Source: Cyanophora paradoxa CCMP329 (taxonomy: Eukaryota > Plantae > Glaucophyta). From it: a stretch of DNA of 35,967 nt. The notes below the pieces were generated by a model, which saw only the letters and a program-made list of their open reading frames with translations, did not search any database and was not told the DNA's origin. Shown here piece by piece: positions 9,817 to 35,967 of the stretch; the first letter of the stretch is position 1, and each line of letters begins with the position of its first letter. Both the position numbers and the translations under genes were made by a program. The stretch covers positions 1-35,967 of the forward strand of contig QPMI01000476.1 of assembly GCA_004431415.1 (NCBI GenBank), written 5' to 3'.

Positions 9817-10101
9817 CACACATAGTAAAATGCGGAGTTTTAACCCTCGGCTTATCTTAATTGATTTTGTTGATATATCTCGTATATTCTATTTCAATCA
9901 ATCGATAATCTGTGTATATCTTATCGAATATTCATTTATTTCGATTATTTTGTATTCTTTTCGATATTTTATCGTAAATTTCTCTTATTTTCCGATTAGT
10001 CTTACTGAGTCTATCGATAATCTGTATATATTTCCGAATAATATAACTGAATCTCAATTAGATCTTGCCTCTGGTTAAAACTCCGCATTTTACTATGTGT
10101 G
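9817..10101. repeat. Perfect 29-bp inverted repeat at the element terminus
   Basis: CACACATAGTAAAATGCGGAGTTTTAACC (9817-9845) and its exact reverse complement (10073-10101). Confidence 0.9.
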
Positions 10102-10340
10102 ATTGGTCTAAAAGTTAATTGATTTAATCGATATTATATTCATGTACTTTCTCGATTAAATTTAATTAAATTTAATTCATTTAATCGGAAATATATCGCT
10201 TAACTCGATTAAGATCCATATTAGATTCATTTGTTTAATAAAACAAATCGATCTCTTATTGAATCCAATCGTAATTATACATGAAACTTATATGTTTTTA
10301 TCATGTTTTAATGATTCTAAGGGGGGACCCTTAGGATTTT

Positions 10341-10812
10341 GAAATAATTGGGTGTGACAGGTGTGACAGGTCTATCCCAAACTTTTGATAGTTCATTTTT
10401 ATGTTATAGAAAAGTTTGGGATAGACCTGTCACACCTGTCACACAAACCATATTCAGTAAGGATCTCTTTTAATGTTAAAATTTCAGTGTTAGTTGGTGT
10501 AGTTGATTCACAAAATGCATCCTGTCACACCTGTCACACAAACCATATTCAGTAAGGATCTCTTTTATAATGAAAAACTCAGTAACAATAAGTAAGAAGT
10601 TTATCTATGTAATTCTACTTGAATAAACAAATGAAATAATCGAGTGTGACAGGTGTGACAGGTCCATCCCAAACTTTTGAGAGTTCATTTTTATGCTATA
10701 GAAAAGTTTGGGATAGACCTGTCACACCTGTCACACAAACCATATTCAGTAAGGACCTCATATATTGGTAAAATCTCAGTGTTAGTTGGTGTAGTTGATT
10801 CAAAAAATGCAT
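10341..10812. repeat. Tandem duplicated unit containing long palindromes with 35-bp arms
   Basis: GTGTGACAGGTGTGACAGGTCTATCCCAAACTTTT-23nt-AAAAGTTTGGGATAGACCTGTCACACCTGTCACAC at 10352-10444 (perfect) and 10644-10736 (1 mismatch); half copy at 10521-10566. Confidence 0.92.
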
Positions 10813-11200
10813 TTATACTCTGATTCATTGTTATTTCCTGTGAAATTTGAGTCAACTCAACCCACTTAGTCAACCCTTGCATTGAATTCGTAACAAAATC
10901 CATATACTTTTACTACTTTTACGATTAATATGAGTCAACCTTGAGTCCACTTAAATATAAATATAATATAATAGGGGGAATCTAGGGCAGATGCTTACTA
11001 AATGCAGTGTTAGATTGATGGGATCATAGATGGGATCACAGTTATCGAAGCAATATAATATAGTTGAATATTCGATATCATAAGTTGATCGAAACGATAA
11101 GTATATGGTTATAAATCGCGATTTTTGAGTTATAATCGAATTTAATCGAAAAAACCGCGTTTTTTTTTTACTTTTCAAGTTTCACGGCGAACGAAGTAAA

Positions 11201-11274
11201 GGTTCCCGAGCGGATTTGAACCGCGTAGTTTTGAGTCAGAAATCAAGCGCTCTATTCTCTGAGCCAAAAACGGC
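11201..11274 (-). tRNA. tRNA-like element (Gln-CTG-like; pseudo-tRNA or Pol III ncRNA)
   Basis: The minus strand shows an A-box/D-arm TGGCTCAGAGAATAGAGC, an anticodon arm TTGA-TTTCTGAC-TCAA, a T-arm GCGG-TTCAAAT-CCGC and a 3' GGGAACC. The acceptor stem is imperfect. Confidence 0.55.
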
Positions 11275-11499
11275 TTACCACCAAGTCGACTCCTGGGCTA
11301 GTGTTTCACCAAGTCTACTATGGCAAGTGACTTTTGCATCTTCAAACTGTTATATCTCATCACCAGATCATCAAAACGCAACGTTCTGCATATCGCTGTG
11401 AAGCGCTTGATAAGATCTACAAGACTATGTGTATATCATGTGCATATATGTATATCAGTCATACATATATTTGGAAAAAACGAGTTTTTGCCTAGCAAA

Positions 11500-12885
11500 C
11501 TAGCTAGTTTTGGTCCTTTCTCTTAGTGTTCTCTGAGGTTTAGGGGCTGTATATGACTCCTTAGTAGTCTGAAAGTCATTATACCATCTCTGGCTATTAA
11601 CCTCAGAAAGTTTCTGTGTCCCTGCTATAGTGAGCTTTTTGAGTTCCCTGTTAACTTTCCCAGCCTTCTCCTTTCTAGCCTCTATCAAAGGCTTATCTGG
11701 GACTTCATTAGCAGCTTCTATGCCTTCTCTCCTTATAGCAGCATCAGCCCTGGCTTCCTCTTTAGCTTGCTCCAAGGCATCCACTGTAGGGGTTTCTAGA
11801 TATTCAACTGCATTCACAGGCAACAGCTCATGGAAAGCAAACCTGTTTTCTATGATCTCACCAGTGGGACTCCTTAGCTTAAACTTAAAGCCTTCCCTAC
11901 TATCAACAGTGTAAACCATCCTAGACCAATTGTTACCCTGTTTAGCAAAGGGGTTCTTCTCAACTTTCACTCTAACAAACATGCCAGGCTGCATGGTATC
12001 AAGGTAAGCTATTGATTTCTTGAATCTTTCATCTTCTAATCCCACTATATACCTATAATGCTCCTCTGTAGTTTCGCCTGGCTTCATCTTAGTAGCTGAG
12101 TGAACTGTATTATTGTAATTATACTCAATATCACCTAACACATCAAAGAATCTAGCTGTGTTATTAGCTATGCAATAGTTTGTGATCAGTCTCTTAATCT
12201 GCTTGTTAAAGGCTTCAATTCGACCTTGGCTTCTATGGTCAGCAGTTCCACTCACTTGGTGTTCTATGAATTTACTAGATAAATACTCCTGGAATATTCG
12301 ATTTTGGAATTCACTCCCAGCATCTGATTGAACTTTTACTATGGGTCTTGCCACTCTCATTTCAAGCTGTTTAAATGCAGCTAATGTAGTGAGAGCTGAT
12401 TTATCCCTTATAGGTATGATATACCCAGTTCTCAGTGTAGATTCCATTGCAGTCATAAAGGTATCATAGCCATTGTTTTGTTTCTTATAAGCTGGGAAAA
12501 AGAGCAAATCAATCACATAGGTATCAAGGGGTTGCCTAATTGGGACCATGGGATCTCTCTTCCTAGATATAGCAGGTGCATTGATCTGAACAACTTCTTG
12601 TTTTTTATAGAACTCTTGCAACTGCTTATAGGATTCATCAGGTAACTCAGCCCTCATAGCTTGAAGCCCTTTGTAACCAGTTCTCACATCATAGAATCTC
12701 TTGGCAATCTTGCTGGTTTCTTTCACTGCAATAGCAACTGGGATCTCTACTGGGACAAGCTCTTTCATCTCTGACTTTTTTACAATTCGAGATTCTCCCT
12801 TTTCCTCCTTGGGAACTGTGATAGGCAGTAGGTTACCTTGTAGTTGCTCAGTGGTTCTCCTAACTATTCTTCCAGTTGCTGGCAT
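11500..12885 (-). CDS. Retroviral-type (rve) DDE integrase, Polinton-like
   Basis: DTYVIDL..VQSDAGSEF..GRIEAFNKQIK catalytic triad, YNNTVHSATKMKP, and C-terminal GMFVRV..F.K..NWS..VY.V. Intact 461-aa ORF. Confidence 0.93.
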   Translation of the reverse strand: MPATGRIVRRTTEQLQGNLLPITVPKEEKGESRIVKKSEMKELVPVEIPVAIAVKETSKIAKRFYDVRTGYKGLQAMRAELPDESYKQLQEFYKKQEVVQINAPAISRKRDPMVPIRQPLDTYVIDLLFFPAYKKQNNGYDTFMTAMESTLRTGYIIPIRDKSALTTLAAFKQLEMRVARPIVKVQSDAGSEFQNRIFQEYLSSKFIEHQVSGTADHRSQGRIEAFNKQIKRLITNYCIANNTARFFDVLGDIEYNYNNTVHSATKMKPGETTEEHYRYIVGLEDERFKKSIAYLDTMQPGMFVRVKVEKNPFAKQGNNWSRMVYTVDSREGFKFKLRSPTGEIIENRFAFHELLPVNAVEYLETPTVDALEQAKEEARADAAIRREGIEAANEVPDKPLIEARKEKAGKVNRELKKLTIAGTQKLSEVNSQRWYNDFQTTKESYTAPKPQRTLRERTKTS

Positions 12886-12888
12886 CTC

Positions 12889-16131: not shown

Positions 16132-16185
16132 AGTTCCTAACTTGTTCCTACTAAAAGGGAGGTTTTAAATGGGGAATTCTGAACA

Positions 16186-16236: not shown

Positions 16237-16239
16237 ACA

Positions 16240-17055
16240 ATGGCAGAGAAGAAATCGTATTGCCTGGAAAAGCTCAAAGCGGCTTTAATGTTGCTTTGTG
16301 GATCTGATAACTTCAATGATTATGTTGCTCTTGGAAGTAACAGGAAACCGCTCCCTCTTTGGGCAAAGCTTGCAAAATATGGATTAAGTGACTATGACCT
16401 GCCTCCAGAGTCTGAGCATTGCGCCTGTGATCATCCAATTAAAGAGCAATGCTATATTCTGCATGTTAATAAAAAGATTGTGGTCATTGTTGGGAATTGC
16501 TGCATTTTACGATTTATTCCGAAGGGTGCCAGAGGTCAAGATATATGTGAAAGATGTGGAGATCGGCATAAAAACCGAAAGGATAATTTCTGTAATAAGT
16601 GCAGAATCGCTTTAAAGCAAGAAGAACTGGAAAGAAAAAGAGAACTTGAAAAACAAGAGGAAGCTCGAAAGAGGCAGCTTGAATTAGAAGAAAGAGAGCG
16701 AAGAGAGAGAGAATTAGAACAAGAAAGAGCAAGGAATAAACATGCAGTTAATCTTTTCCTGATTTGGTGCAACCAATTTATTCCGAAAATGGATAATCTT
16801 CGCAGAGATGATATAGAGAGGTTCAGAGAGGGCAGATCTGCATTGATTGAAATGTATGCAGAACTCAGTACAACAAATACATTGGTTGCTGGGTTTCAGG
16901 TGCCTTATCTTAAAAAAGATATCGCAAAAGGATTAGATTGCAGATGGAATAAGGACAAGAAAACATGGGAGACCTTGGAAATCGAACCATTTGTAGCATT
17001 GCTAGGTAAGCATTTCAAACTTATGTATATTGAGCGATTTGGACAAAGAGGTTAG
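16240..17055 (+). CDS. Zn-finger / coiled-coil protein with DUF5710-like C-terminus
   Basis: CACDHPIKEQCYI..VGNCCI..F, two CxxC pairs, an E/R coiled coil, and VPYLKKDIAKGLDCRWNKDKKTW. Confidence 0.7.
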   Translation: MAEKKSYCLEKLKAALMLLCGSDNFNDYVALGSNRKPLPLWAKLAKYGLSDYDLPPESEHCACDHPIKEQCYILHVNKKIVVIVGNCCILRFIPKGARGQDICERCGDRHKNRKDNFCNKCRIALKQEELERKRELEKQEEARKRQLELEERERRERELEQERARNKHAVNLFLIWCNQFIPKMDNLRRDDIERFREGRSALIEMYAELSTTNTLVAGFQVPYLKKDIAKGLDCRWNKDKKTWETLEIEPFVALLGKHFKLMYIERFGQRG

Positions 17056-17059
17056 AGAA

Positions 17060-17100: not shown

Positions 17101-17111
17101 ACAGAGGAAAA

Positions 17112-17366
17112 ATGCCACTCAGTGAAGCCCAGAAGAGAGCTATGAAGAGATACCAGCAAACTGAAAAAGGTAAGGCTCAAATCAAAAAGTTTAACGAAAA
17201 AATAGCCACACAGCTTAGAGATCTATATCAAACCGATGATACCTATAGAGCAATGAAAATAGCAAGTTCATGTCAGCGAAAGTATGCAGCCAATGCAGTC
17301 TGCTTTGTCAAGTATTTGTATGATGTCCCTTACTCAAATAGAGGGAGAAAATTGAAACATGTCTAA
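17112..17366 (+). CDS. Small basic protein (putative DNA-binding)
   Basis: MPLSEAQKRAMKRYQQTEKGK; has its own promoter motif and a 3' hairpin. Confidence 0.7.
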   Translation: MPLSEAQKRAMKRYQQTEKGKAQIKKFNEKIATQLRDLYQTDDTYRAMKIASSCQRKYAANAVCFVKYLYDVPYSNRGRKLKHV

Positions 17367-17576: not shown

Positions 17577-19902
17577 ATGAACGCCAAACAGACTAAATCG
17601 CTCAAATCGCTCGCTAACTGGCTCAGATCTGATGAGGAACTGTCCAAAAACATGATTATCCCAGTGAAACCTGACAGCAAAGACCCTGTTTTCAAGCATA
17701 AGGGAGGTGCATGGTCCTGGGAAAAGTATGAGGAAGCGCTGGCAACTAATCAGTATGTATCTTGGGCATTCTGCTCTCAGACAACATGATGGTTATTGAC
17801 TTTGATGATGAGGAGGACTTTGAGAAATTCCGGGATATGTTTCCTGATGACTTTGATGCCAATCAGCCCATGGCAAAAACTAAAAAAGGCTATCATGTCT
17901 ACTTTAAACGACCTGAGGAGTTCAATAAACTCAAAATTACCGATAAGGCTCCTGGCTTTAAAGGCTTTGAGAAGGTTGACCTGAAAACAATCACTGGAAC
18001 TGGAACTTCTGGACTGATCAATGTGTGTCCCAGTGTGAACAAGGCTTGGGTAATCTCCCCATGGGATGATACCTGTGATTTCAATGAGCCTACTGATGAC
18101 TTCAAAAAGTGGATAATAGATAACTACATCTATAAGAGTGAGTATACTGCTAATGCTACCTCACATGATGAACTGGAAAACAATATTATCAAAGAGCTGG
18201 TGGATATGGGATTTATGCATCCCAATATAATCTCTAAAACTGAACTTGGCTTTAACTTTGATGCTGCTAACAAGGGACTCAATTGCCCATGCTGCAATGG
18301 TTCACATGAATCGAATAACTGGTATGTTATGAAAGCTAAAGGAGATGATAACAAATACATTGTGTCAAGCTACAGTGGAAATTGCAAAAAACGATTCATC
18401 TGCATTGGAATGCAATCTGATATCTTCAATCTTATAGATAAATCCGCTGGTTCTGGTGGCGCTCATTATGATGTGAGTTTAGTATGCAAAGAGGTTCTTA
18501 AACATACATGGAGATACTCCAAAAAGTCATGGTTCAAACTCAATACTGATACTGGGATTTGGGAGCATGATGACACAAACCTAAAGATTTACCTAGATAT
18601 AAGCCGTCTTGTTGTCCCCCAATACCTTGGAAGGGCTGTGCATTATAGTCAAAGAGCTTTAAAGGATGAGGAAAACAAAGCAGCTTTCGAAGAAAGATCC
18701 AAAACATTGATGACCATTGCCAAAAATCTTAAACAATCAGGATTTCGCAAATCCCTTCTGACTGACTTGGTCCCACTGCTGAATGATGATGAATTCTTTG
18801 AGAAGATTGACACAGTTCCATATGTGATTGGATTCGAAAATGGTGTATTTGATCTGACCACTATGACTTTCAGAAAGGGTAAACTGGAAGATATGGTGAG
18901 CAAGACTGTGGGTTATGACTATACTGAAAATGTAGACCCCAAGAAAATAGAGCATCTCAATCAGATTTATAAAGAGATTGTGGATGATCCAGCAGAGCGA
19001 AAGTATCTTCTGGCATCCATTGCAATTGCCCTTAGTGGATCAACTAAATCCCAGAAGTTCTATATGTGGACTGGTGCTGGTGCTAATGGTAAATCACTTG
19101 TTCAGGAATACTGCAAACAGATATCTGGTCGCTATTACAGCCCTCTCGAAATATCCTATTGGACTAAGCCTAAAAAGAACTCATCAGAGGCTACTCCTGA
19201 ACTTGCCAAACTCCTTGGAAAGCGACTTGTATTCAGTAATGAGGCTGAAGATGGTGATAAACTGCAGATCTCCAAGATTAAGGAGGTCACAGGTGGAAAT
19301 GAAATGACTGTGAGAGCCTTGTTCAAAGACCCAGTTATCCTTACCCCAATGTTTCAGGTCTACATTACAACTAATGACAATTTGACTATAAATAAACCAG
19401 ACTTTGCAATTCAAAGAAGACTTTCCTATCAGAGATTCAATAATATATTCAGAGAGAAGCCAGAAGCTGGTCAAAAGAAAGCTGACCCAACTCTGTTCAC
19501 ACTTCTACACAATGATGATGAGTATAAGATGGCTCACATGAAGATATTACTGGATATGTGGAAGAACAAAGAGGTTGAAGAGATCTTAAGAAGTCCCCTC
19601 AATCGATTATTGAACAGGGAATTAACTTTATAGCTGAAAATGATAAGATTGGTGAATGGCTTCGAGATAATTTCGAGGTTACACATAATGCTAACGACTT
19701 TGTTTCCAGTGATATCATTTACAAATCATACAAAAGTGTTGATGATAAAGTTGAATGTGTATCTGTTATGAAAAGAGTAAGGGAGATCTTCAATGTTAAA
19801 TCAGAAAGAAAACGAGTTAATGGTATTCTTGCCAGAGGATATATTGGGATTCGAAAGATAACAAGGGTTCAGGAAGACAATGAAGATGATGCCGAATATT
19901 AA
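17577..19902 (+). CDS. Prim-pol / D5-like SF3 primase-helicase (two frameshifts)
   Basis: VIDFDD and TKKGYHVYF (AEP/prim-pol motifs), Zn finger CPCC..H..C, IGFENGVFDL, Walker A GAGANGKS, IKEVTGG..VRALF, TTND. Frameshifts at ~17770 and ~19600. Confidence 0.9.
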
Positions 19903-19943: not shown

Positions 19944-20064
19944 CCTTACTGAAAATGGTTTGTGTGACAGGTGTGACAGGTCCATCCCAAGGAAAGCCCT
20001 GGTGAAAAGTTGATTTTCAAAATCGATGGGATAGACCTGTCACACCTGTCACACCTGTCACACC
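19944..20064 (-). repeat. Internal inverted copy of the TIR palindrome
   Basis: CCTTACTGAAAATGGTTTGTGTGACAGGTGTGACAGGTCCATCCCA...TGGGATAGACCTGTCACACCTGTCACACCTGTCACAC. The left flank is the reverse complement of the TIR flank AAACCATATTCAGTAAGG. Confidence 0.9.
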
Positions 20065-20131
20065 TATCGAAAATGACCAAAATTTGACAAGAATACTTAA
20101 GGCTTACTTGATTGTGTATAGTGAAGACAAA

Positions 20132-20353
20132 ATGGCAAAGACTCTTGATGAGATGACCATGACTGAGTTAGATAAATGCATAAAGCATGGAGATATAGGG
20201 GCATATATCGAAATGTCACAGAGATTGATAGGTTACAATATGTATGCAGCTAAACCAAAGAGAAATAGATCAGTAAACATTCACATAACTGTTTCAGTGT
20301 CTGAGAATGCAAACAAAAAACAACAAAAGCATATTTACAAAAGTTATCTGTGA
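20132..20353 (+). CDS. Hypothetical protein
   Basis: ATG 20132 follows a degenerate copy of the promoter motif (CAAAATTTGA..TACTTAAGG); inverted repeat right after the stop. Confidence 0.5.
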   Translation: MAKTLDEMTMTELDKCIKHGDIGAYIEMSQRLIGYNMYAAKPKRNRSVNIHITVSVSENANKKQQKHIYKSYL

Positions 20354-20446
20354 CTTGCAATTGATTGCAAGTATAAAGCCAATTCCTTTGTATATATTTT
20401 TATAGCTGCCTCAGTGGCATACTGAGACCGCTTTTGCTCAATTATC

Positions 20447-20692
20447 TTATAGACCTGGGGGTCCATTGCTACTATCAGTAGGCAAATAATATTTAATCGG
20501 TCTCCCTCTGGGTCTCTGCTCCTCTTTTTGGGCTTTTCTGCGATAATAGGATGCCAGGGCTTGCTGCTTTTTATACTCTCTATATGCTGGGTCCTCTCTA
20601 TATCGTTTCTGCATTGCCAGAATGTGTCTTATAGACCCCTCAGTAACAGGTTCATCACTGGTAAACTCGATTAAACTAATAGTGTCCTCCAT
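20447..20692 (-). CDS. Small basic protein with an AT-hook
   Basis: RYREDPAYREYKKQQALASYYRRK and RPRGRP. Confidence 0.65.
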   Translation of the reverse strand: MEDTISLIEFTSDEPVTEGSIRHILAMQKRYREDPAYREYKKQQALASYYRRKAQKEEQRPRGRPIKYYLPTDSSNGPPGL

Positions 20693-20948
20693 TTATATTC
20701 CCAGAGAAAACGTTTTCTGCTGGCAGAGAACTTCTCCTTGGATACTCCTGTTGCTCATATGTATACTCTGTGGGGTCTGCTGGCATTGACTCCACAGAAA
20801 CTGTTGATCTCCTTCTCTCTCTTGCCTCAGATACATTATCCTCAGTATCTGACATCTCAAACTCTATTGTTGTGTCACAGCATCCACTGTGGCAATTGCT
20901 TACCACATGCAGACTGAGCATCTCAATAAACTTTCGTATTATATCCAT
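20676..20948 (-). CDS. Hypothetical protein
   Basis: ATG-initiated 90-aa ORF tightly packed in the minus-strand gene run. Confidence 0.5.
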   Translation of the reverse strand: MDIIRKFIEMLSLHVVSNCHSGCCDTTIEFEMSDTEDNVSEARERRRSTVSVESMPADPTEYTYEQQEYPRRSSLPAENVFSGNINGGHY

Positions 20949-20970
20949 GTCTCTAATAAAACAGAGAAAA

Positions 20971-25041: not shown

Positions 25042-25969
25042 ATGAACCGGCTCGTTAATATTGATAGCAGGGATAGAAGCCAAGGACAAAATGAAAACTC
25101 TTACAGGGTCACCCTCACAACTCCAGTAGAGAGACCAAGGGAATGCAGGGTTCTATATGCAGAGATTCCAAACAGCATCTATAACAGTGTGGGAACTGAT
25201 CATCTAACAGTTCAGTTTAATTACCAAGATGGTTCATATAACCAAGTGATCACACAACAAGTGTATCCCCTTCCCAGTGGCTACATCAATCAGGGTCATT
25301 TTGGGGTAACACACCCTTATAATTATGGGCTGAACTATTCAAGCTTCCAAACCATTGCAGGCAAAACAGTAGCTTTTGAGTTCAAGATATTCTATAACCA
25401 ACTACCTATAAAGTGGAGTTTTACAGTAACCATGAGTTTCGTTTTATTGCAAGCAACCAGAGAATAGGGAAGCTTTTGGGTGTGAGTTCTACTGAATACA
25501 CCAATGGGTATTATAGCACTCCTCCTGTTGGTGGATCACCCTATCGACCTGAGAACCTGTTAAAGTATGATGGCAAACCTATTACACCTGATCACCCAGC
25601 ATGGGGAACCACCTTTCAGGACCCAGACTCTCATCTAAGCCCTTGCAATATTATTTTGACAGCAGAAGATGTCTGATATGAATGCTGAGCAGTATCTATA
25701 CATGCACATTAAAGAGCTTGCCCCTTTGCCAGCAGACACAATATAATTCCGAAATCGCAACCACATAACCAGGGGCAATCCTTAGATTGCAATTGAGTAA
25801 GGATATAGGTGGCTATGTTTACCATAGTGGTGAACATGCAGAATTCATTCAGATAAATGACAGAAACCTGGTGATAAGGGAACTCACAGTTGAGTTTAAA
25901 GATTACTTTGGTGAACTGATTGATATGAATGGAATCGATAATTCTTTTCAGTTGGAGTTTATCGAATAA
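25042..25969 (+). CDS. Minor capsid (penton) protein 2 (frameshifts)
   Basis: VNIDSRDRS..YRVTL..VLYAEIPNSIYN and C-terminal LTVEFKDYFGELIDMNGIDNSFQLEF, typical single jelly-roll penton motifs. Confidence 0.8.
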
Positions 25970-27514
25970 AGGCACCTGTAAAGTCAACTCTCATTGTGGG
26001 AGCATTCACATACACAAGGGGATAAATGCGAATATATTTAATTCTGAGAGAAAAACCTATGTAAAAAGCATCCTTGATGCTGAGAGGAAATCCACTCAAT
26101 AGAGCCACATCACCTGAGTTGTGAGCATTGTTAATGTTCTCACAGACATATATTTTGTTTTGCCCATCTGATCGAATAAAAGACCAGTTGATCCCATCAG
26201 TGGATGTTGCCACATTGAAAGTCTTAATAAAAGCATTGGTGTCCCCTGATCCATAGGCAATCACAGAAGAGAGTTCAAAAGTATATGGAAAAGCAACTTG
26301 AAGGTATTCAGTGGGGGTTTCCCATATCTGCTCAGGAGCATAGGCTCCAGCTTCCCAGCCAAATGCTGAAGGTCTAGCCATGAAAGGCTCTTTACCAGTC
26401 ACAGAGGATGAGGCAGTGAAGGCATCATCTGCAAGCTGATACCAATTAGCATCCAAAGGTGGTGATGTAGTGAGAGTGGATGAGATGTAAGCCTTTGTAG
26501 GGTTCTTTAATTCATAGTTTGCTACTAGAATGCTGCAAAGCTTATTAATCATATCATTGTTTGCTGCTATGTATGTTTCTGTGAAAGAAAGCATATCTGG
26601 GATTTTAGAAGTGTCATCCAGGGAGCTTACTATGTGATTCGGAAGAGGTACTGATAACCTATAGTATCTCCCATAATCCTGATCATAGTTGTAGGGTAAC
26701 AACTCCTCCATCTTATCAAGGGCAGAAAGCTCACTTGCAGCCATGAGCATGTTAATCAATGGGCTTCCATCTGTTGAGGCAATCCATGAGAGAATGCCCC
26801 AGCTGTTGACAGTCTCATAAGCATAACCCACATAATCAGACTCTAAATGTGGGTCCACCTCTCCACAAGAGATACTTATTACTATAATGTCATCATCATC
26901 ACTGTAAATCTTCTTTGCATGGCTGTAACCACACACACTGGGATTATTGTTTCCCGAAATGGCACCATCAATGAGACAGACATATACTCCCCGATTGAAA
27001 TCAACAATGCTTACAGGTGAAAAGTATGTAGGAGCAGCAGAAGTAGCCCTAGCAGCAATCTTACAGGGCATAAAGTTGTAATTGTTATCATTTGTGATAA
27101 ATATTGGTTTCATATTCTGAGTATCAAAAGATGTAATCACAATGTCCTTTAGGGAATCCTGTATTAGTGATTCCCCAGTAACTGAATTGATTGCAGTCTC
27201 CAAGGGTCCCACATCATACTTTGTGTTAAATAGGGCATTTTCAATGATATTTCGAGGATTTGCGAAAATCAAAGGCAGTTGAGTTAGGTAAATATTGTGT
27301 AAATCGTTTGCTGTCAGTTTAGGTTCACCTGGTCTATCAGGATGCCTTATATTCAAACCTATTGCAATGATCCCACCAGTGGAAGTTCCACTCACAAGAT
27401 CCACAAGATCGATTATTCTCCTGCCAGTTCGATTTTCGATTTCTTTTAGCAGCCTGGTTATGATAATGCCCTTGCACCCCCGCCAGAAAGACTTAAAACG
27501 ACCTTGAGAGGCAT
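25959..27514 (-). CDS. Patatin-like phospholipase with C-terminal F5/8 type C (discoidin) domain
   Basis: MPLKVVLSLSGG(G)CKG (frameshift ~27478), GTSTGG nucleophile elbow, ATSAAPTYF, IDGA..NNPS. C-terminal FTASS..W..EYLQVAF..S.DG.NW..YIRIYP..MRVDF.G. Confidence 0.9.
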
Positions 27515-27557
27515 CTTTTACTTATCAGGAATTTTATAAATCCATATAGTAAAAGCC

Positions 27558-30500
27558 ATGAGCTTCAATTACCCACCAAATCTAGAAACCATTCAAGATG
27601 ATAATGCAAGCAGCACCAAGCATGTGAACTTTGATAATATTAAAGTAAAGGGTTCAGTTTCAATTGACCACAGCTCTGATAATTCATCAAAGACTCAATC
27701 AAGGGAGCATGCTTTATCTGTGAATCAAACCGATCCAGATAAAGAGGATGTCAGTGTAGCCTTTAGTTTGGGTAATGTGAAAGCAAACCAAGTGGCAGAG
27801 ATCAAAGCAACAAGAAGGAGACCTAGGAAACTAAAAACCAGTGGCACTCACCCAGATATACCTTCCAGGTTCGATAGTGGTCGATTGATTTTCAATGTTC
27901 AAGATGAGCAGGGCAAACAGAACACAGCTTTGCGAATTTACAATGAGGGCAGCACTGCAAAAGCTGAGGTCCCCAAGTATTGCAAGTGGGTCCCATTGCC
28001 AACACAAATCAGGTCTCCTACACAAATGATGTATACCCCAAGGATATTACATATGACTTTGCGAGGAATGAGCCTTTTGGGTTTTTACTCCAAAAGATGT
28101 CCATCAAAAAAGCCATCAATTACAATCAACAGTAGCCCCAGTCAACCAGTAGCAATCCATTTACATCCTGATTTAGTCGAAATGGATAGGCACCTTTTGC
28201 CTTTGTATAGCAATGTGAAAGACCTTGGAATTAGAACCAGGCAATGGCGAAATATCCATGGCAGCAATGTGTATGCAAATGGGGAGAAACTTGTGAGTGA
28301 GAAAACTCTAAGGGAAATAATTGAGCATTATGGTCCCAATGGACCAACAGTTCCATTCCCTATTCCATTTCCAAATGGACCTCCCGATTTAACACCAAAG
28401 AAACAGCCTGGAAGAGAATACACAGCAACTGAAGATGTAGCCTTTGGGCAGCATATTGTTAGTTGGGAGCAAGTTCGCAATAAACCTATAATTGAACCCA
28501 GAAAGCAAATAGATGAGCAGTATTTACCTCCTGAAGTCGATATATTAGAGCTTGATGAATATCAATTCGTTCCAGATGAGGAAGAGTATTTACCAGATGG
28601 TTTCGACCCACAAGAATATGAGTATGATCAGTTTGACCCCAATGAGGAGGAGATACTCCCAGATGGTTTTGACCCACAAGAATATGAGTATGAACAGAAC
28701 TATGAACCTGATGAGGAGTATTTACCAGATGGTCATGATCCACCAGCTGTTGACTATGAGCAACCTTATGAACCCCATGAGGAATTGTTACCAGATGGAT
28801 TTCGACCTGAGATCTGGAGTTCTTCCCTGATTATGAACAAATTAATAATAAACCTGCAAAGTATCCCCAGAGGATCACAATCATGATTGGGATGAATCTT
28901 AGGCAAACCTCAAAAGTATCCACCAGAGATCACAGGCATGATTGGGGAGAAATTGATGGGATACCTACTGAGTTCCCACCAAGCAAACATGAACATACTT
29001 GGGATGAGATCAATGACCAACCAGAATTCGCAAAGGTAGAGCCTCTTGATAACTTGGGGGTTTCTCTTTATCAGACTTGTAATGTCCCAGAAAGAATCTT
29101 TTTGAATGAACACTATGTACATGTGAATGGGACACTTGCAAATTCAGCTATGAGAGGACCACTTCATATTAGGACATTACCAGGCTCTTTTGAAACCCCA
29201 CCACCACCAGGAGCAACCATACCAAATATCTTTGTGTCAAGCTACATGGAGGCTGACATTCCCACAGATACATTCAGAGTCCCAACAGACCCAGCAACCT
29301 ACCAAAATTACAACTCTGCTATACAGGTTCATGTAGCAGATGTAAGCAGCTTAGATGGCTCAAGACCAATGATAGTTTTCAGTCGAGATAAGTATTCCTA
29401 CATTCCCATAGTGGGAACTGCAAATGATAATTATGGAAGGGCAGAGCTTGCATGGATTAAAACAGATTATGGTGGGGTTCTGGAAGCCAATCAAAGAATG
29501 GCTGCAAAAAACATACACAATGAGAGCATTTCGAGAGTAGTCACAGAGGATTACCTTCAAGCCCAAAACTACATAGATGAAACAGAGCTAATGTAATCAT
29601 TGCAGGTATAGGTGTAACAGGCAATTACCTCCCTCTCACAGGTGGAATAATTGATGGAACAGTAACAGCATGTAACTTCTTTGTCCATACTGAAAGCAAT
29701 CAAACCTTTCCTGTGGTTCATCCAGGAGGTGAGTATGAGATACCTGATGATCCAGCTATTATGCCCATTAAGATTGATCTCCCTTCTGATTATGTTGGAA
29801 GGGGTGAACTGAAAACGATCTCTTTCACAGGAGATTATAATGATCTCCTCAATAAACCCACCCCATCCAATTTACACCCTGTTGCATACTCAGGTAGTTT
29901 CCTTGATCTGAATAATAGATCACACACCCACACAAAGGCAGAAATTATAGATTTTGCACACACTCACACCAAATCCCAGATAACAGATTTTGCTCACTTC
30001 CACACCAGAGCAGATATTACGAATTTCGCTCACACTCATGTTAAATCTGAGATCTTAGATCTCGGAAATGTTGCATATGTTGTCACACCATACCAAGGCA
30101 GAGATTACAGATCTTGGAAATGTTGCATATGTAGGTCACACCCACACTAAGGCAGAGATTACAGATTTTGCACATACTCATGATGGAATACAGATATTTA
30201 TAACAAACCAGCGATTTTCTCGGCAACTACAATGATCTGACAAATAAACCCACCCTTGATCCCTTTACAGCAAATAATATCACTGCAAATGCAAACCTTC
30301 TCATTGGATCAGGTTACTTTCTCGATTATGACCCATATATATGCTGATCCTCCTGTTATTGAATTTCCACAATTCAACCCTTTCTACTAACTCTATATCT
30401 TACTATCAGGATAAAACCCTACTTGTTCGTGGAAATGCATATGCAAGAGAAATGTGGGTCATGGATCCTCGGACAATTCAAAGGTTACTAAGCTGCTCCT

Positions 30501-30805
30501 CAATACATGCTTGATAACCTGATTAGAAAGGGAGACATGAAATGACATTGCAAATCCTCAAATTGGGGCAGTTCAGCAAGGCAAAACCATACCATTACAT
30601 TAATTGGAGTCCTGCCTTTGCATCTGCTCCATCTGTTGTTGTAACATTGCAGGGACTACCTGCAACAAATGTGGAAATCGATTATAAAATAGGAATATCA
30701 AGCAACTCAACAACTCTACCAAATCAATCTTGTTATTGGCAGCAGATGGGTAACCATTCAACCACAGTGGCTTCAAATTGCATTCATTGGATAGCAACAG
30801 CATAA
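27558..30805 (+). CDS. Large fibre-like protein with acidic repeats and phage tail-fibre HxH repeats (multiply frameshifted; may be more than one gene)
   Basis: HRHDWGEIDGIPTEFPPSKHEHTWDEI, FTGDYNDLLNKP, (HTHTKAEITDFA)n, and C-terminal AFASAPSVVVT..HWIA. Confidence 0.65.
28510..28830 (+). repeat. Coding tandem repeat, ~60-bp unit encoding EEYLPDGFDPQEYEY
   Basis: Four to five imperfect copies visible in both DNA and protein. Confidence 0.85.
29915..30185 (+). repeat. Coding tandem repeat, 36-bp unit encoding HTHTKAEITDFA
   Basis: Repeated CACACCCACAC.AAGGCAGA.ATTA.AGATTTTGC variants. Confidence 0.85.
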
Positions 30806-30830: not shown

Positions 30831-31885
30831 ATGACCTCTCTATTAGAAATCCCAAATTATGAACTTGCAGCCAAATCACTCCATAGCACCTCTCATGGAG
30901 TAGTTGATTCAACACCTGGGTATATTTGCACTGAAACTTCAAGTAATACCTCTTTCACAGAGAATAATATACTCAGAGTCAAAGAGATTAGATGTGATCG
31001 AAATGGAGGCAAGATTAGAACCACAGGCATTATAATCTCGAATAAAAATCAAGTCCAATCAGGTCAGGTAGTCCCGGATTCAGCAATATATGATAATGTG
31101 GTGGAGTCACCACAGCACAGATAGTGACTTTTGGAACACAAGCAATAATTCCGCTCTTGTAGTCAAGAGTGGAGGAGCCTACATTGGAGATGGAGCAAAT
31201 GTAGCAGGAACTGTCACAGCAAATCAACTATCTGTGAGTGGGACAAGTAGTTTTGGTGGGTATATGAATCTCAATGTGGGCTTTCAGGGAATATTCAGTA
31301 TGGAACACTCACGCTTTCCACAAGAATAAACACACCTGAGATTGACAACATGAGTGACACAGTCATGAATTACAAGAGGAATGGGACACCATCTTTTCTC
31401 TCAAAAACAACTCAAATAGATAACACAACTGTTCAACATCTGACACTTCCGACAAGCAAATATCTCAAATTAAGTAGCCATCCTCGTTTCTTTGCAACAA
31501 AACAGCAACCAAATGGGTCAATAACTGCAACAATTTCCTCAATAAATATATATCCAACAACAGGAGTCATAGTGAACCAGGAAATCATTTCGATCCTGCG
31601 ACAGGCTTTTTACTGCCCTGTTACAGGAAACTATCTTGTCACATTTAGTGGATCCTGTTATTGACTGGAAGAACAACTAATATTGTTACATTTTTACAGA
31701 AAAACGGAAGCTCATCTGGAATTGAAGTTATACTAATTATGCATCTGCATATGCAAACAATGGGTTCGAAATTATTGTAGACCTTCAAGCCAATGATTCC
31801 ATCAGATATCATATAATAGCAGTGGTGGAGGTTCTATATATTATAATATCAGATGTTCTTTGGATGTATGCTTGTCCATTCATAA
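30831..31885 (+). CDS. Fibre-like paralogue 1 with C1q-like head (frameshifted)
   Basis: ILRVKEIRCDRNGGKIRTT; NSALVVKSGGAYIGDG; PRFFAT..NQGNHFDPATG.FYCPVTGNYLVTF. Confidence 0.65.
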
Positions 31886-31906
31886 TATTGTCTACAAATA
31901 TAAAGA

Positions 31907-32887
31907 ATGTCTACACAAATAGCAGTTCTGTTTTCTGTTATGCTGCCCGAAATTACATCAACTCAATCACACAGTAACAGATGCAACCCCTGGGTTTATT
32001 GCACTGAAACAACAGGAGCCGATTCGTTTTCTCAAAACTCTGTGATCAGATGCAAAGAAATTCGATGTGATCGCAATGGGGCAAGGTGAGAACCACAGGT
32101 TTAATAGTTTCAAACAAGAACCAAGTTCAATCAGGTCAGATAGTCTCAGATTCCACAATATATGATGATGTAGGAGGGTCACCACACCCAAAATAGTAAC
32201 ATTTAACAATACAATCAATAACTCTGCTCTTGTTGTGAGAAGTGGAGGAGCTTACATTGAGATGGGGCAAGGTTGATGGAACCCTAACAGCAAATCAGGT
32301 AAGTATTACAGGAACAAGCACCTTTACAGGATTGTAACAGCAAATGCTGGTATTTCACTACCAATTGCTCACAATCCATAATCACAGCAACAAACAATTG
32401 TCACACCAGAAATCGATACAGGAGCCAATGTAGACCTTCTTCTCAAACGAAATAGTACACTGTCGCTACTCTGAAGCGAATAGTTTGACAGTTAATACAG
32501 GTGTTATCTCAAAAACACAACCACGATTTTCAGTTCAACTTGGCTACAATCACACTGCTACAACTCTGCGATCTAATAAACTGGGCAACAGTTCGAGTAA
32601 CAATACCAATTCATTCAGCACATCAACTGGAAGTTCACAGCACCTGTGCAGACACTATCGTTTTTCAGTATTCACTTCTTCAACCACAACTTCTTGATGT
32701 GTTCTCAGGGTAAAACAATGCAACAGGATTGGCATTTCCAAGGTAACACTCACAATCGTCAACAACAAATAAACGTTGTTTCTCTGCATTCTCAATCTTG
32801 CCCAAACGATTTGTTACACTTGTTACATTCAGTCGGTTCCATATCGCAATCAAACAGCTTCTCAGGGAATTGATAAGCATCGTTTAA
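31907..32887 (+). CDS. Fibre-like paralogue 2 with C1q-like head (frameshifted)
   Basis: VIRCKEIRCDRNG; NSALVVRSGGAYI; PRFSVQL..NTNSFSTSTG.FTAPV..HYRFSV..NSFSG. The N-terminal DNA is clearly similar to paralogue 1. Confidence 0.65.
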
Positions 32888-32907
32888 TTTCTTCATGTAG
32901 TTTAGGA

Positions 32908-33207
32908 ATGTCGAATATTACCAAGTGGTTCTACTGATATGAGAAGTTGGGAATGGAATTTGGCTGCTTCTGTTCAGGATGGATCGATAATGCTGCCCAT
33001 AACAGAGCAAGAATCGCAATTGATGAGATTGTTCAGAAAGAAATCCATCTTGCATCTCATCAGGAGTTCAATACCAACCTCAAAGGAAGCGATTGTATTA
33101 CAGGCATTCCAAAGGGAACTGTAAAGAAAGTATCGAGTATAATAATGTCACAGAAGAGTAGTGTACATTATTTTTCTTTCCTTCTTAGTAAAAGAAGCAA
33201 TGGGTGA
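32908..33207 (+). CDS. Hypothetical small protein
   Basis: Coding-like ORF between the fibre genes; boundaries uncertain. Confidence 0.35.
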
Positions 33208-34020
33208 ATATAATCGAGTTCAACTCCATATATTCCCTTGGATCCCCTGCAATGCACTTTCGCCAGCATGAAGTTAATGATGAGGTTCGTGGTTTAGAAT
33301 CCACAGAGAGACCCAATTCCAATGGTAACTCCTTTGATAAAAATTCGATTATTCGAGTTAAAGAGCTGAGAGCTGATAAGAATTCAGGTGTGGTTAAAAC
33401 AACTCGACTTCTTGTCACAAATGCTAACTTCTTTCAGCCTACTAATGGAGGTCCTGATGCTTACAGTGTTGATCTGAAAGCCCTTGATTATGATAAAACA
33501 CTGCTGCTGTAACTGTGAGATCAGGAGGAGCATTTATTGGTGGTGGCTGCAGAGTTTCAGGTCAACTTTCATCCTCAATTTTCGTATAATGATGTCCCAG
33601 ATACTCTTGAACAAATGTAGAGAACCCCAACGAATTCGATTATATATACCAGTTGCACAACAGCCAGTTATTCAATTTTACCAAGGTTATACTGTCACAC
33701 TTGAAAACTCTGAATTGATTGAAGGAACCAAAAGAGTAATGAGAGGGCTGGTCATTCCTTCTGCAATGCTTTCTTTATGTAGAGCCAACAATAACCAGCC
33801 AGGTCACAGATACAATTTCAGTGTTCAGGGATATGATCATTTTGGCACAGGGTTCTGTGTTTATAATAACAATTTCACCTATGATCTGTTTGTTACAGAT
33901 ATTGGAAAATATACAATTACAGTTATGGGTATCAGAACAGATATAGCTGCTGTCTCAGCTCTAAGAGGTGTTACTCCTGATACTCTTTCTCAAACAGGGT
34001 TTTACAGGAACCAGATGTGA
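33200..34020 (+). CDS. Fibre-like paralogue 3 (frameshifted)
   Basis: IIRVKELRADKNSGVVKTTRLLVTNANF; C-terminal RIRLYIP..YDHFG..GKY..RTD. Confidence 0.6.
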
Positions 34021-34061
34021 TTGATGACCCACCCCATAAAGATATATCACTTTAATGTAAA

Positions 34062-34906
34062 ATGGCTGAGCAACCCCCACTTGAACGAATTATTACACCA
34101 CAGCTATCATTAGCTGCCCAGCAAACCATGTTTCTGCAGCATGCTACCTTGATGATGTGGAAGGTCTCCAATCCACAGAGGTCCAACCTACAATGAACAC
34201 CTTTGGTTCCACCCACAAACTGAGATTACAGGAACTCAGATGTGATAAAAATAATGGATAGTTAAGACAACTAAGCTACTTGTCACAAATGCAAACTTTT
34301 CTGCTCATTATGGAGACCCAGATAGCTATGGAGATCCTCTGTCTACTTATTCTTTTGAATCTAGGTCGGGAGCTATTAACTGCAAATCGGGGGGAGCTTA
34401 TATTGGTGATGGTCTTAGGGTTGGTGGGGCTGTTGGAGCGCCTTATTTGTGAATGATCAACCCAATCCATTGATCCTACCAAGAATTCGAACCTATGTCC
34501 CCAGCATGAATGCCCCATACATTATAAAGATATTCCCCATTGTTGTAAATGAACAAACAGCAGTAGTAGACTCTCTTGTTGAAATTGGTGACCACTACAA
34601 GGTAGTTGTGGATATCCACCAGATGTATATGCTGTATGTCAAGTAGAGGGTGGAACTCCTAATTTTGCAGTTGTGATCACCCCATATGATAATTTTGGTA
34701 TTGCTTATCATGGAGTCAATTTCGGTTTGGAAGACTATCAGTTTCTGGTGAGAGCCACCAAGTTTGGTATCTACAAGTGTGTATTATATGCTGAGAGAAC
34801 CGATTTTATTGCAAGGCAGAATACCTATGCTGAGTATTATGGCACAAATCGATATTTCCCCATTTTTGGCAGGATAATGCTCCATAAGAATATTGGTTAT
34901 ATATAG
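34062..34906 (+). CDS. Fibre-like paralogue 4 (frameshifted)
   Basis: LRLQELRCDKNNG.VKTTKLLVTNANF; KSGGAYIGDGLRVGG; RIRTYVP..YDNFG..GIY..RTD. Confidence 0.6.
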
Positions 34907-34909
34907 AGT

Positions 34910-35158
34910 ATGGATAGTAAAACAAAAAAGTTTATTGATGCTGCTATGACAGTTCATGGTAAAGATAAATTCGATTACAGTGAGACACATTACATCAAAG
35001 CTCAAGAGAAAGTATCTGTGTGAGATGTTTGCAGTGTAATAAGGTGATCCTTACCTATCCCTTTAATCATGTGAAAGGGATCAGGTTGCAGGGACTGTAA
35101 CAAAAGAAAGAGTCAAGCACACAGGAAAGAGCTACTTCATCATCAGAGTAGAGTATAG
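34910..35158 (+). CDS. Zn-ribbon domain protein (frameshifted)
   Basis: KKFIDAAMTVHGKDKFDYSETHY..EKVSV.RCLQC..PFNHVKG.GCRDC, a module seen in phage/NCLDV nuclease-associated proteins. Confidence 0.6.
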
Positions 35159-35207
35159 GGATATTTGCATTAGGTTTGACTTAGTTAATTTTTCTAAGGT
35201 ATTCTTA

Positions 35208-35659
35208 ATGGAGACTAAATACAGAGGCTTTCATGTTATGCTTGATTACAAGGCTAAATCAGCTATAGCAACAGGTTATGAGCATGTTAGCTTCCTAGGT
35301 AATTGGATTATGGGAACCCTTGAACAAGCAGTATGAGACAAGGTATTAGGATTGTTCATAAGCATTGTGAGATATTTGATGGCACTATCACCTCCTTGCA
35401 TTGGTTCTGCTATTAGATGAAAGCCAATTGCACAGCTCATTGTTATTCCAATGAAGGCATGTTAGCAATTGATATATTCAGTTGTGGTAAAGAAGCTCAG
35501 CATAAAACACAATCAGTAGCAGATGAGATCGATAAAACAATGAATTTCTTAACATTTGAGAAGACTGAGAGACATAAACATGATAGTTCCCGTTTTGATG
35601 GTTTCTATAATGAGATAAACAGGGTAATTTACCTTTTTTATTACAATGGCAATCGTTAA
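35208..35659 (+). CDS. speD: S-adenosylmethionine decarboxylase, short prokaryotic-type proenzyme (frameshifted)
   Basis: YRGFHVMLDY..IVHKHCEIFDG..LLLDES.CTAHCYSNEGMLAIDIFSCG matches the LxESHxxxHxxxE..xDxFxCG signature. Confidence 0.8.
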
Positions 35660-35833
35660 AAAAGGATATAATATATCCTTTCCTACAATAGCTTTCTACA
35701 ATGATTCTTCTTTCTCTACAGTAGCTTTTGTTACAATAGAATTCTACTGTATGATGTCCGAAATATGAATGCACCCTACATTAAGCAATGTCAAGTATTT
35801 CGAATACTATTCGATTTCCTTACAATAACACTC

Positions 35834-35967
35834 AGCATCTGCCCTAGATTCCCCTATTACCTATTATTTAAGTGGACTCAAGGTTGACTCATTTAATCGT
35901 AAAAGTAGTAAAGTATATGGATTTGTTACGAATTCAATGGGAGGGTTGACTAAGTGGGTTGAGTTGA
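35834..35967 (-). repeat. Inner part of the right terminal inverted repeat (truncated by window end)
   Basis: AGCATCTGCCCTAGATTCCCC...GTTGACTAAGTGGGTTGAGTTGA is the reverse complement of 10852-10995 with small indels. Confidence 0.92.

What the first reader, a model, noticed from the sequence alone, without database searches (positions are those of the whole stretch)
9817..35967. Near-complete endogenous Polinton-like virus with an unusual gene combination and no recognisable maturation protease
Seen: TIRs, rve integrase, pPolB, prim-pol/SF3 helicase, ATPase, MCP, two pentons and ~10 kb of entry/accessory genes in a GC-rich eukaryote. Known: classical Polintons and virophages usually carry an adenain-like cysteine protease, while many PLVs lack it. 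Inference: this may be an undescribed PLV lineage with a much more elaborate virion than is usual for the group.
Basis: partly seen in the sequence, partly recalled or inferred. Interest (0 to 1): 0.85.

Follow-up and report, generated by a model that had tools for sequence, protein, structure and literature searches.

The report
Algal provirus whose polymerase lost proofreading

Summary
9817-35967 is an AT-rich provirus (GC 0.39 against 0.56 in the flank), predicted at about 27.2 kb. It carries rve, pPolB, an AEP-SF3 primase-helicase, an A32 ATPase, a double-jelly-roll MCP, patatin-discoidin, fibre genes and AdoMetDC. No maturation protease was found in 267 six-frame pieces; a control protease was detected. 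The pentons remain unconfirmed.

It is not an undescribed lineage. Its closest MCP relative, from Cyanophora paradoxa (56%), is listed in Bellas 2023. Bulzu 2025 tabulates 156 glaucophyte elements: 0 proteases, 49 pPolB, 85 rve, 89 lipases, 66 AdoMetDC. That paper also names the patatin-discoidin and PTR-H-lectin fusions. A 2026 preprint shows repeat-bracketed double replicases, with one Cyanophora example.

Not found in my literature searches: the polinton-type pPolB keeps its polymerase motifs and a vOTU protease domain, but has lost ExoI and ExoII, the ExoIII tyrosine and about 100-130 residues; 6 of 6 long homologues keep them. Three 9-bp iteron palindromes resemble satellite-phage origins. 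Most listed frame breaks look like assembly errors. Verdict: new member of a known, unnamed group, with one noteworthy replication feature.

The parts
9817..10995 (.). Left terminal inverted repeat (predicted ~1,179 bp), GC 0.31
   Evidence: GC step; flank contigs stop at 9818; inner boundary from the match to the right TIR
9817..10101 (.). Terminal 285-bp sub-palindrome (48-bp arms, 81% complementary); the end begins with a short CA repeat
   Evidence: I8; folds as a long hairpin, -47.8 kcal/mol, no shuffle control; one contig links 9818-10220 (X19)
10340..10812 (.). Two tandem palindromic units (292-bp spacing): pairs of 9-bp repeats facing in opposite directions around an AT-rich spacer, plus one partial copy
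   Evidence: D1, I11-I14; 14 copies of the 9-mer in the element, about 0.13 expected
11500..12885 (-). rve (DDE) integrase, 461 aa, unbroken
   Evidence: Pfam rve E 2.6e-4; D126/D188/E224; directly after pPolB, as in L001-L004
12889..16084 (-). Protein-primed PolB, ~1,065 aa, in three frames: N-terminal region (likely terminal protein), vOTU (Cys216, His321), zinc finger, eroded exonuclease with EndoVII-like finger, intact motifs A/B/C
16240..17055 (+). 271-aa Cys-rich ORF with a weak DUF5710 match; function unknown
17112..17366 (+). 84-aa basic ORF, unassigned
17577..19902 (+). AEP (Prim-Pol) fused to SF3/D5 helicase with P4-type C-terminal region, in three frames
   Evidence: Pfam, PHROG 1156 E 2e-50, TIGR01613 E 1e-27
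19944..20065 (.). Third palindromic unit, inverted relative to those in the left TIR, 42 bp after the helicase stop; 2+3 repeats, arms conserved, spacer unrelated; candidate origin or module end
   Evidence: (I4, I5, I19)
20132..21705 (.). Four unassigned small ORFs: 20132-20353 +, 20447-20692 -, 20676-20948 -, 20971-21705 - (244 aa, charged; possibly a core protein, inferred)
   Evidence: no family at E<=0.01
21734..22515 (-). A32-type packaging ATPase, two frames
   Evidence: Pox_A32 E 7.4e-8; Walker A in 22273-22515
22581..23950 (-). Double-jelly-roll major capsid protein, two frames
   Evidence: 56-65% identical to P0001; fold search of the P0001 model
24004..25012 (-). Candidate penton A (three frames); unconfirmed
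   Evidence: position next to MCP and recalled terminal motifs; no library hit
25042..25969 (+). Candidate penton B (three or more frames); unconfirmed
   Evidence: recalled terminal motifs; weak score to an L003 ORF that I read as a penton (12 of 500 shuffles reach it); Atlas 0.88 to an unnamed cluster
25959..27521 (-). Patatin-like phospholipase fused to a discoidin (F5/8 type C) domain; GxSxG and DGx motifs present; start region broken
27558..30805 (+). Fibre-like region: 66-bp acidic repeats, phage-tail-repeat (PTR) shaft, C-terminal H-type lectin; many frame breaks
   Evidence: tail-fibre PHROGs E 2e-4 to 1e-3
30831..34906 (+). Four paralogous genes (from ~30831, ~31905, ~33190, ~34020) sharing an N-terminal domain of about 130 aa, with different C-terminal parts; predicted fibre cassette
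   Evidence: mutual BLASTP E 5e-15 to 4e-4; C-terminal parts have no Pfam match at E<=1
34910..35150 (+). Broken Cys-containing ORF; resemblance to viral zinc-finger endonuclease remnants is recalled, not tested positive
   Evidence: no family
35208..35659 (+). S-adenosylmethionine decarboxylase-like gene, broken
   Evidence: AdoMet_dc E 0.0013; TIGR03330 E 0.0028
35834..35967 (.). Inner 134 bp of the right TIR, cut by the window end

Best explanation
This is an integrated Polinton-like virus (predicted full length about 27.2 kb), likely one of many related copies in the glaucophyte Cyanophora, that has no detectable capsid-maturation protease and whose protein-primed polymerase has lost its proofreading motifs. 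SHOWN: gene content, TIR, double-jelly-roll fold of the close MCP homologue, intact DDE triad, intact polymerase motifs, vOTU Cys/His, eroded exonuclease. INFERRED life cycle: (1) the rve integrase inserted the linear genome through its TIR ends; (2) the host likely keeps it silent by CpG methylation; (3) once released, pPolB would prime at the ends through its terminal-protein domain, which vOTU would cut off; (4) without proofreading it would work with the AEP-SF3 primase-helicase, which may load at the iteron palindromes as satellite-phage Rep helicases do; (5) the A32 ATPase would fill a double-jelly-roll capsid that needs no vUlp1 cleavage; (6) lectin-tipped fibres and the patatin-discoidin lipase would give independent attachment and membrane entry. 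No RNA polymerase gene was found, so transcription must come from the host nucleus or a helper giant virus; which one is not determined.
For: Closest MCP homologue is a Cyanophora paradoxa protein (56% over 99%, E 2e-106), and the same sequence is in Bellas 2023 Table S2. That paper counts 366 MCP hits in C. paradoxa. Bulzu 2025 Table S6, 156 glaucophyte elements: 0 in all nine protease columns, PF03175 49, rve 85, D5_N 40, Pif1 34, lipases 89, AdoMet_dc 66; its text names PTR-PTR-H_lectin and discoidin-patatin. Exonuclease: ExoI (A/M)DFE reads CKIE, ExoII HNLxxYD reads DQMDDCG, ExoIII lacks its Tyr, and about 100-130 aa are missing, against 6 of 6 long homologues. Identity in ExoII-III is 27% to the homologues against 46% among them; in vOTU 30 against 36, in the palm start 49 against 55. 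A contig from run X19 covers 14373-14696, including ExoII, with 0 differences. vOTU: OTU domains fill the VIA list for residues 194-330, best Z 7.5, rmsd 3.0, 94 aligned. Krupovic 2024 links exonuclease loss to helicase gain. At 7 of 11 frame breaks I located in pPolB, AEP-SF3, ATPase, MCP, pentons and patatin, short-read contigs differ from the window by a one-base gap (list cut to 12 of 53 rows). 11 of the 16 extra-base sites I tested touch runs of 3 or more, against a 25% baseline (p 3e-4). CpG o/e is 0.30 in the element against 1.15 in the flank; 33 observed against 178 expected at codon junctions.
Against: The host is inferred from homologues; no genome was held. No full-length pPolB from the same family was retrieved, so family-wide exonuclease loss rests on read cover, not on an alignment of copies. 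The deletion site itself was not shown to be bridged by a listed contig. The pPolB model is weak (pLDDT 52) and the OTU Z-scores are under 8. Pfam also missed the vOTU domain, so a very divergent protease could escape the scan; several ORFs of 80-270 aa stay unassigned. Control viruses L001-L004 are also CpG-poor (0.43-0.88). The pentons are unconfirmed. 4 of the 11 breaks have no listed gap row.
Confidence: 0.78

Rival explanations
1. The stretch is a composite. A transpoviron-like replication/integration unit (9817-20065: rve, pPolB, AEP-SF3), closed by the inverted third palindrome, has been joined to a separate morphogenetic module; the palindromes mark module ends, not origins. This can be true together with the best explanation.
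For: The third unit is inverted relative to the TIR units, with 47 bp at 96%. Summed contig depth over about 16.0-20.4 kb is lower (1.8-9.0 thousand) than in neighbouring bins (8-34 thousand) in 3 of 3 runs (the tool warns that this is no copy number). The 2026 preprint describes non-TIR repeats bracketing replication modules and names a Cyanophora element as an example. pPolB-rve sits beside capsid-region genes with no match to this MCP in L001-L004.
Against: The right end matches the left TIR, so the whole 27 kb shares one pair of ends. Only the repeat arms are kept in the third unit while its spacer is unrelated, which fits conserved binding sites better than a TIR remnant. The low-depth block excludes rve and pPolB.
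Confidence: 0.3
2. A decayed fossil: the frame breaks and the exonuclease changes are neutral decay after insertion, and this copy cannot form virus.
For: At least 11 frame breaks in core genes and many more in the fibre region; strong CpG loss; 4 of 11 breaks have no listed gap row.
Against: rve is unbroken, and polymerase, vOTU, DDE and patatin catalytic motifs are intact while only the Exo motifs are lost. The core genes join by frame change without in-frame stops in the aligned pieces. Thousands of contigs lie at 95-100% identity. Bellas 2023 reports such breaks as frequent assembly artefacts.
Confidence: 0.2
3. One reading: an undescribed PLV lineage with a far more elaborate virion than usual.
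For: The MCP has only 5 true relatives among 1.84 billion representatives (6 hits, one a spurious repeat protein). No relative was found in viral or metagenome contigs. The clusters carry no group name. There are four paralogous fibre-like genes.
Against: The family, its gene counts and two of its fusion proteins are in print. Large fibre arrays are described as usual in PLVs.
Confidence: 0.1
4. A capsid-maturation protease is present but unrecognised, either among the unassigned ORFs or as a second job of the vOTU domain.
For: Unassigned ORFs at 16240, 20132-21705 and 27558; Pfam misses divergent proteases such as the vOTU here (against 88).
Against: No Q-x-CG or His-Trp motif pair in any plausible ORF; 0 of 156 family members hit any of nine protease profiles; the control protease was detected.
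Confidence: 0.1

Closest known systems
Cyanophora paradoxa / Glaucocystophyceae endogenous PLVs (Bellas et al. 2023, PMC10120064; Bulzu et al. 2025, PMC12220804; first noted by Starrett et al. 2021, PMC8502044)
   Same: MCP family (P0001 is in Table S2; another listed MCP looks closer by eye, identity not computed), no maturation protease, pPolB, rve, D5-type helicase, A32 ATPase, lipase, AdoMetDC, patatin-discoidin, PTR-H-lectin.
   Different: In what I read, these papers do not mention exonuclease erosion, the vOTU state, the iteron palindromes or the four-paralog cassette. No Peptidase_S74, HNH_3 or Dam methylase was found in this copy (37, 40 and 10 of 156 in the family). Figures and the Zenodo data were not seen.
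Polintoviricetes (Maverick/Polintons, adintoviruses)
   Same: pPolB of the TP-vOTU-Exo-palm type with an EndoVII-like finger (25-44% to a Helicoverpa protein and to IMG/VR contigs), rve integrase, TIRs, A32 ATPase, DJR MCP.
   Different: No vUlp1/adenain found; exonuclease eroded; extra AEP-SF3; MCP outside the Maverick-Polinton columns of Bellas Table S4.
Mavirus-like virophages (Lavidavirales)
   Same: pPolB with only a remnant exonuclease, a separate SF3 helicase and rve (Krupovic 2024, PMC11161782).
   Different: The MCP model ranks NCLDV-type capsids far above Sputnik (E 2e-16 against 4e-10); no maturation protease; the helicase is fused to an AEP; the pPolB is the long polinton type.
Aquintoviricetes PLVs (TsV, PgVV/Gezel-14T)
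   Same: Reduced morphogenetic module without protease; fibre and lipase entry genes.
   Different: Those mostly use tyrosine recombinases with PolA/AEP or pPolB-S1H replicases (partly recalled); the Cyanophora MCPs do not fall in the PgVV or SP columns.
SaPI / P4-type satellite origins (PMC9371898)
   Same: Short repeats directly downstream of a primase-SF3 helicase gene, at least two on each side of a central spacer, pointing in opposite directions.
   Different: Repeats are 9 bp, not 5-6; two more units lie in the TIR; binding is untested; the host is a eukaryote.

Membership tests
Polisuviricotina (polintons, PLVs, virophages) | Double-jelly-roll major capsid protein | tested here: met
   Model of the 56%-identical P0001 matches PBCV-1/SGIV MCPs, E 2e-16; the window's own MCP was not folded whole
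Polisuviricotina (polintons, PLVs, virophages) | A32/FtsK packaging ATPase | tested here: met
   Pox_A32 E 7.4e-8, above the cut-off
Polisuviricotina (polintons, PLVs, virophages) | Single-jelly-roll minor capsid protein (penton) | tested here: inconclusive
   Two candidates, no library or structure support
Polisuviricotina (polintons, PLVs, virophages) | Genome of 15-40 kb with terminal inverted repeats | tested here: met
   TIR match 129/144; right end cut; full length predicted at ~27.2 kb
Cyanophora/glaucophyte endogenous PLV group | MCP of the Cyanophora clusters | tested here: met
   56-65% to P0001, which is listed in Bellas 2023 Table S2; which of the two clusters was not determined
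Cyanophora/glaucophyte endogenous PLV group | Gene content: rve, pPolB, helicase, lipase, AdoMetDC, no protease | tested here: met
   against Table S6
Cyanophora/glaucophyte endogenous PLV group | Inserted in a glaucophyte genome | tested here: inconclusive
   Inferred from homologues; no genome held; run organisms are coded
Polintoviricetes | pPolB with TP and vOTU, plus rve integrase | tested here: met
   the TP domain is inferred from position only
Polintoviricetes | vUlp1/adenain maturation protease | tested here: not met
   0 of 267 pieces, control positive; sensitivity limited for divergent enzymes
Polintoviricetes | MCP of the Maverick-Polinton clade | tested here: inconclusive
   No tree built; no Polinton MCP among the hits; published tables place the Cyanophora MCPs outside those columns
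Virophaviricetes (mavirus-like) | Virophage-type MCP and maturation protease | tested here: not met
   No protease found; virophage MCPs rank far below NCLDV-type capsids; MCP-VIR 0 of 156
Virophaviricetes (mavirus-like) | Dependence on a giant-virus factory | not testable with these tools
   Needs co-infection experiments
Aquintoviricetes | TsV/PgVV/Dino-type MCP | tested here: inconclusive
   No such MCP among the sequence hits; no tree built
SaPI/P4-type origin | Opposed repeats around a spacer just downstream of the helicase gene | tested here: met
   against the description
SaPI/P4-type origin | Specific binding and melting by the helicase's winged-helix domain | not testable with these tools
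   The C-terminal piece matches P4-type primase C-termini weakly; binding needs an assay

The most novel reading that the evidence does not exclude
The Cyanophora viruses are a separate, class-level polisuvirus lineage that lost pPolB proofreading independently of mavirus and of the pPolB-S1H PLVs, and is caught mid-way with the dead exonuclease still partly in place. They replicate in two modes: terminal-protein priming at the ends, and loading of the AEP-SF3 primase-helicase at satellite-phage-like iteron origins, two in each TIR and one travelling with the helicase gene. This would be a testable third case of the proposed trade of exonuclease for helicase.
Probability: 0.3. Interest if true: 0.65.

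Novelty: new member of a known kind. Interest (0 to 1): 0.38.

Why it matters
As a provirus it is one of hundreds already counted in this alga, so the headline claim adds little. The value lies in the replication module. Krupovic 2024 proposed that exonuclease loss and helicase gain go together, from two cases. A polinton-type pPolB with eroded Exo motifs beside an AEP-SF3 gene, in a cultivable model alga with many copies, makes this testable: across copies, Exo state can be scored against helicase type (D5 in 40, Pif1 in 34 of 156 elements). The iteron palindromes give a concrete DNA target for an enzyme class whose role in these viruses is unclear. The group has no name, and its MCP is missed by standard PLV profiles, which matters for taxonomy.

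Tried and rejected
No whole genome was held, so copies, the right end and the TSD could not be read. MCP and ATPase searches in viral and metagenome contigs found no relatives; these scans need close peptide matches, so this is not proof of absence. The hit P0003 (3,989-aa repeat protein) was dropped as spurious. Searches for same-family pPolBs returned only distant proteins: 2 long and 6 short. L001-L004 share only pPolB and rve, plus a weak ATPase match in L001; they served as controls. Penton tests gave nothing. C1q-like heads, suspected by eye in two fibre paralogs, had no Pfam or PDB support. A Q-x3-CG match inside pPolB is the eroded ExoII site, not a protease motif. Foldseek on the pPolB model gave no match at E<=0.001; no exonuclease family of B polymerases was among the VIA rows, which shows nothing either way. 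No RNA holder is on record. No MCP phylogeny was built: too few alignable relatives. Literature: 9 searches. 'polinton + S-adenosylmethionine decarboxylase' and 'polinton + pPolB + exonuclease + inactivated + proofreading' returned 0 papers; subscription papers are not covered. The preprint's supplements could not be seen and may describe these repeats or this polymerase. Earlier-findings look-ups returned nothing.

Full report
OBSERVATION. The window has a GC-rich eukaryotic flank (1-9816, GC 0.56) and an AT-rich block from 9817 to the end (GC 0.39). The last 134 bases match 10852-10995 in reverse (129/144). The left TIR therefore likely spans 9817-10995, and the element likely runs about 1 kb past the window, to about 27.2 kb. 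Short-read contigs support the left end: the flank contig stops at 9818 in runs X2 and X6, and in X1 it goes on with 64 letters unlike the window. No TSD can be read.

GENES. Pfam, PHROGs and NCBIfam identify rve, pPolB, AEP-SF3, A32 ATPase, patatin-discoidin, PTR, H-lectin and AdoMetDC. Several of these hits are below the curated cut-offs because the genes are in pieces. The MCP has no Pfam hit. Its best homologue is P0001 from Cyanophora paradoxa (56%). A model of P0001 (pLDDT 60, 7 sequences) matches PBCV-1, iridovirus and other NCLDV double-jelly-roll capsids first (E 2e-16), and Sputnik much lower (4e-10). A full HMMER scan gave 6 hits: P0001 itself, one Logan protein at 38%, three ENA proteins at 27-30%, and one spurious repeat protein. 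The two penton candidates flank each other head to head next to the MCP and carry terminal motifs that I recall from PLV pentons, but no test confirmed them. Four genes in 30831-34906 share an N-terminal domain and differ downstream. Contig joints in this region (31193 to 32273; 31190 to 29654) suggest that other copies shuffle these modules.

PROTEASE. All 267 stop-to-stop pieces of 40 aa or more between the TIRs were scanned against Pfam at E<=0.01; none hit a peptidase family. The same library detected a CE-clan protease in control contig L003. A motif scan of 759 pieces found no adenain-like pair in a plausible ORF. A cysteine-protease domain does exist inside pPolB: Cys216 and His321 align with those of 6 homologues, and OTU structures dominate the VIA list for residues 194-330 (best Z 7.5, rmsd 3.0, 94 aligned). 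This is the vOTU domain that Krupovic 2024 proposes cuts off the terminal protein (section read). It is not the maturation protease. Pfam missed it, which marks the limit of the scan.

POLYMERASE. Read through with X at its two breaks, pPolB is about 1,065 aa, against 1,167-1,314 in five full-length homologues. Motifs A, B and C are intact. In 6 of 6 long homologues ExoI, II and III are canonical. Here ExoI has lost its Asp, ExoII its Asn and Asp, ExoIII its Tyr, and about 100-130 residues before ExoIII are missing. Identity drops specifically in ExoII-III (27% against 46% among homologues). So many changes cannot be recent decay of one copy, given that summed contig depth at 90% identity or more over this region equals that of neighbouring bins and one contig covers ExoII without a difference. 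I could not align other family pPolBs, so 'family-wide' is inferred. Krupovic 2024 (passages) reports a remnant exonuclease in mavirus and its loss in pPolB-S1H PLVs, each with a helicase gain. This element fits that pattern with an AEP-SF3 gene.

REPEATS. A 9-bp repeat occurs 14 times (about 0.13 expected), only in three palindromic units and one partial copy. Two units lie in the left TIR and one 42 bp after the helicase stop, in inverted orientation, with conserved arms and an unrelated spacer. SaPI origins are described as repeats directly downstream of the helicase gene, opposed around an AT-rich centre (passages). An origin is my preferred reading, but it is an analogy. The alternative is a module boundary, as described in the 2026 preprint, which names a Cyanophora element with transpoviron-like parts and a lone AEP gene (parts 3-4 and passages read; figures and supplements not seen).

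STATE OF THE COPY. Of 11 frame breaks that I located in pPolB, AEP-SF3, ATPase, MCP, pentons and patatin, 7 coincide with a listed one-base gap between short-read contigs and the window (12 of 53 rows shown). Of the 24 gap rows shown, I tested 16 distinct extra-base sites and left out five deletion rows and two sites in the right TIR; 11 of the 16 touch runs of three or more equal bases, against 25% by chance. This fits long-read assembly error, which Bellas 2023 describes for such elements (parts 2-3 read), but copy-specific lesions are not excluded. Of 7,320 contigs laid from X1, 5,940 are 95% alike or more, so many close copies exist; depth is not a copy number. CpG is depleted (o/e 0.30; flank 1.15; control viruses 0.43-0.88). 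C. paradoxa methylates CpG in repeats and viral genes (PMC12344493, passages), so methylation-driven loss is likely but not shown here.

COMPARISON. Starrett 2021 noted adintovirus-like genes in Cyanophora contigs (section read). Bellas 2023 counted 366 MCP hits in two unnamed clusters (272 and 94) and lists P0001 among its MCPs (supplement rows). Bulzu 2025 (sections 9 and 13, Table S6) gives for 156 glaucophyte elements: no protease, 49 PF03175, 85 rve, 139 A32, 97 hits to its penton HMM, 89 lipases and 66 AdoMet_dc. It names the discoidin-patatin and PTR-PTR-H_lectin fusions and calls fibre arrays common in PLVs. By the tests above the element is a polisuvirus that fails the protease criterion for classical polintons and the MCP and protease criteria for virophages; its class is open.

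VERDICT. Real, correctly described in outline, and a member of a known but unnamed group. The eroded exonuclease and the origin-like repeats were not found in nine literature searches of an open-access library and are the parts worth following. Interest 0.38.

Noticed in passing
window 16198-16236 and 17521-17559: A 39-bp direct repeat (97%) ending in a TATA-like run lies just upstream of the 271-aa ORF and of the AEP-SF3 gene; a looser version precedes the 17112 ORF. Likely a shared promoter of the helicase block.
   Followed up: partly
window 33727-35600: Run X20 (RNA is a guess) has contigs here at depth 33-153, highest on the AdoMetDC-like gene, and 1-5 or none elsewhere. Contigs cannot show expression; a weak hint only.
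   Followed up: no
window 9000-9818: In run X1 the flank contig continues past 9818 with 64 letters unlike the element, which may be an empty or differently occupied site.
   Followed up: no
window 911-1482, 2751-2827, 5648-5894: A family of short inverted repeats in the host flank sharing TACTGTAG and AATTGCCG words; they look like MITE or DNA-transposon ends.
   Followed up: no
window 2965-3521: A 557-bp element with 47-bp arms at 98% complementarity; likely a MITE.
   Followed up: no
window 4625-4780: Degenerate tandem array of 9/22/31-bp units in the host flank.
   Followed up: no
window 2-496 (+): End of a GC-rich host ORF; resemblance to class III cyclase C-termini is recalled, with no Pfam support.
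   Followed up: partly
window 28576-28801: Four 66-bp repeats encoding acidic EEYLPDG-type units in the fibre-like region.
   Followed up: no
L001:5255-12140, L003:1518-14952: IMG/VR contigs with pPolB-rve in tandem and intact Exo motifs, beside 600-680 aa ORFs with no match to this MCP; L003 carries a CE-clan protease.
   Followed up: partly
P0004, P0005, P0008 (ENA contigs of 3-12 kb): Distant environmental relatives of this MCP (27%); their gene context could not be fetched.
   Followed up: partly
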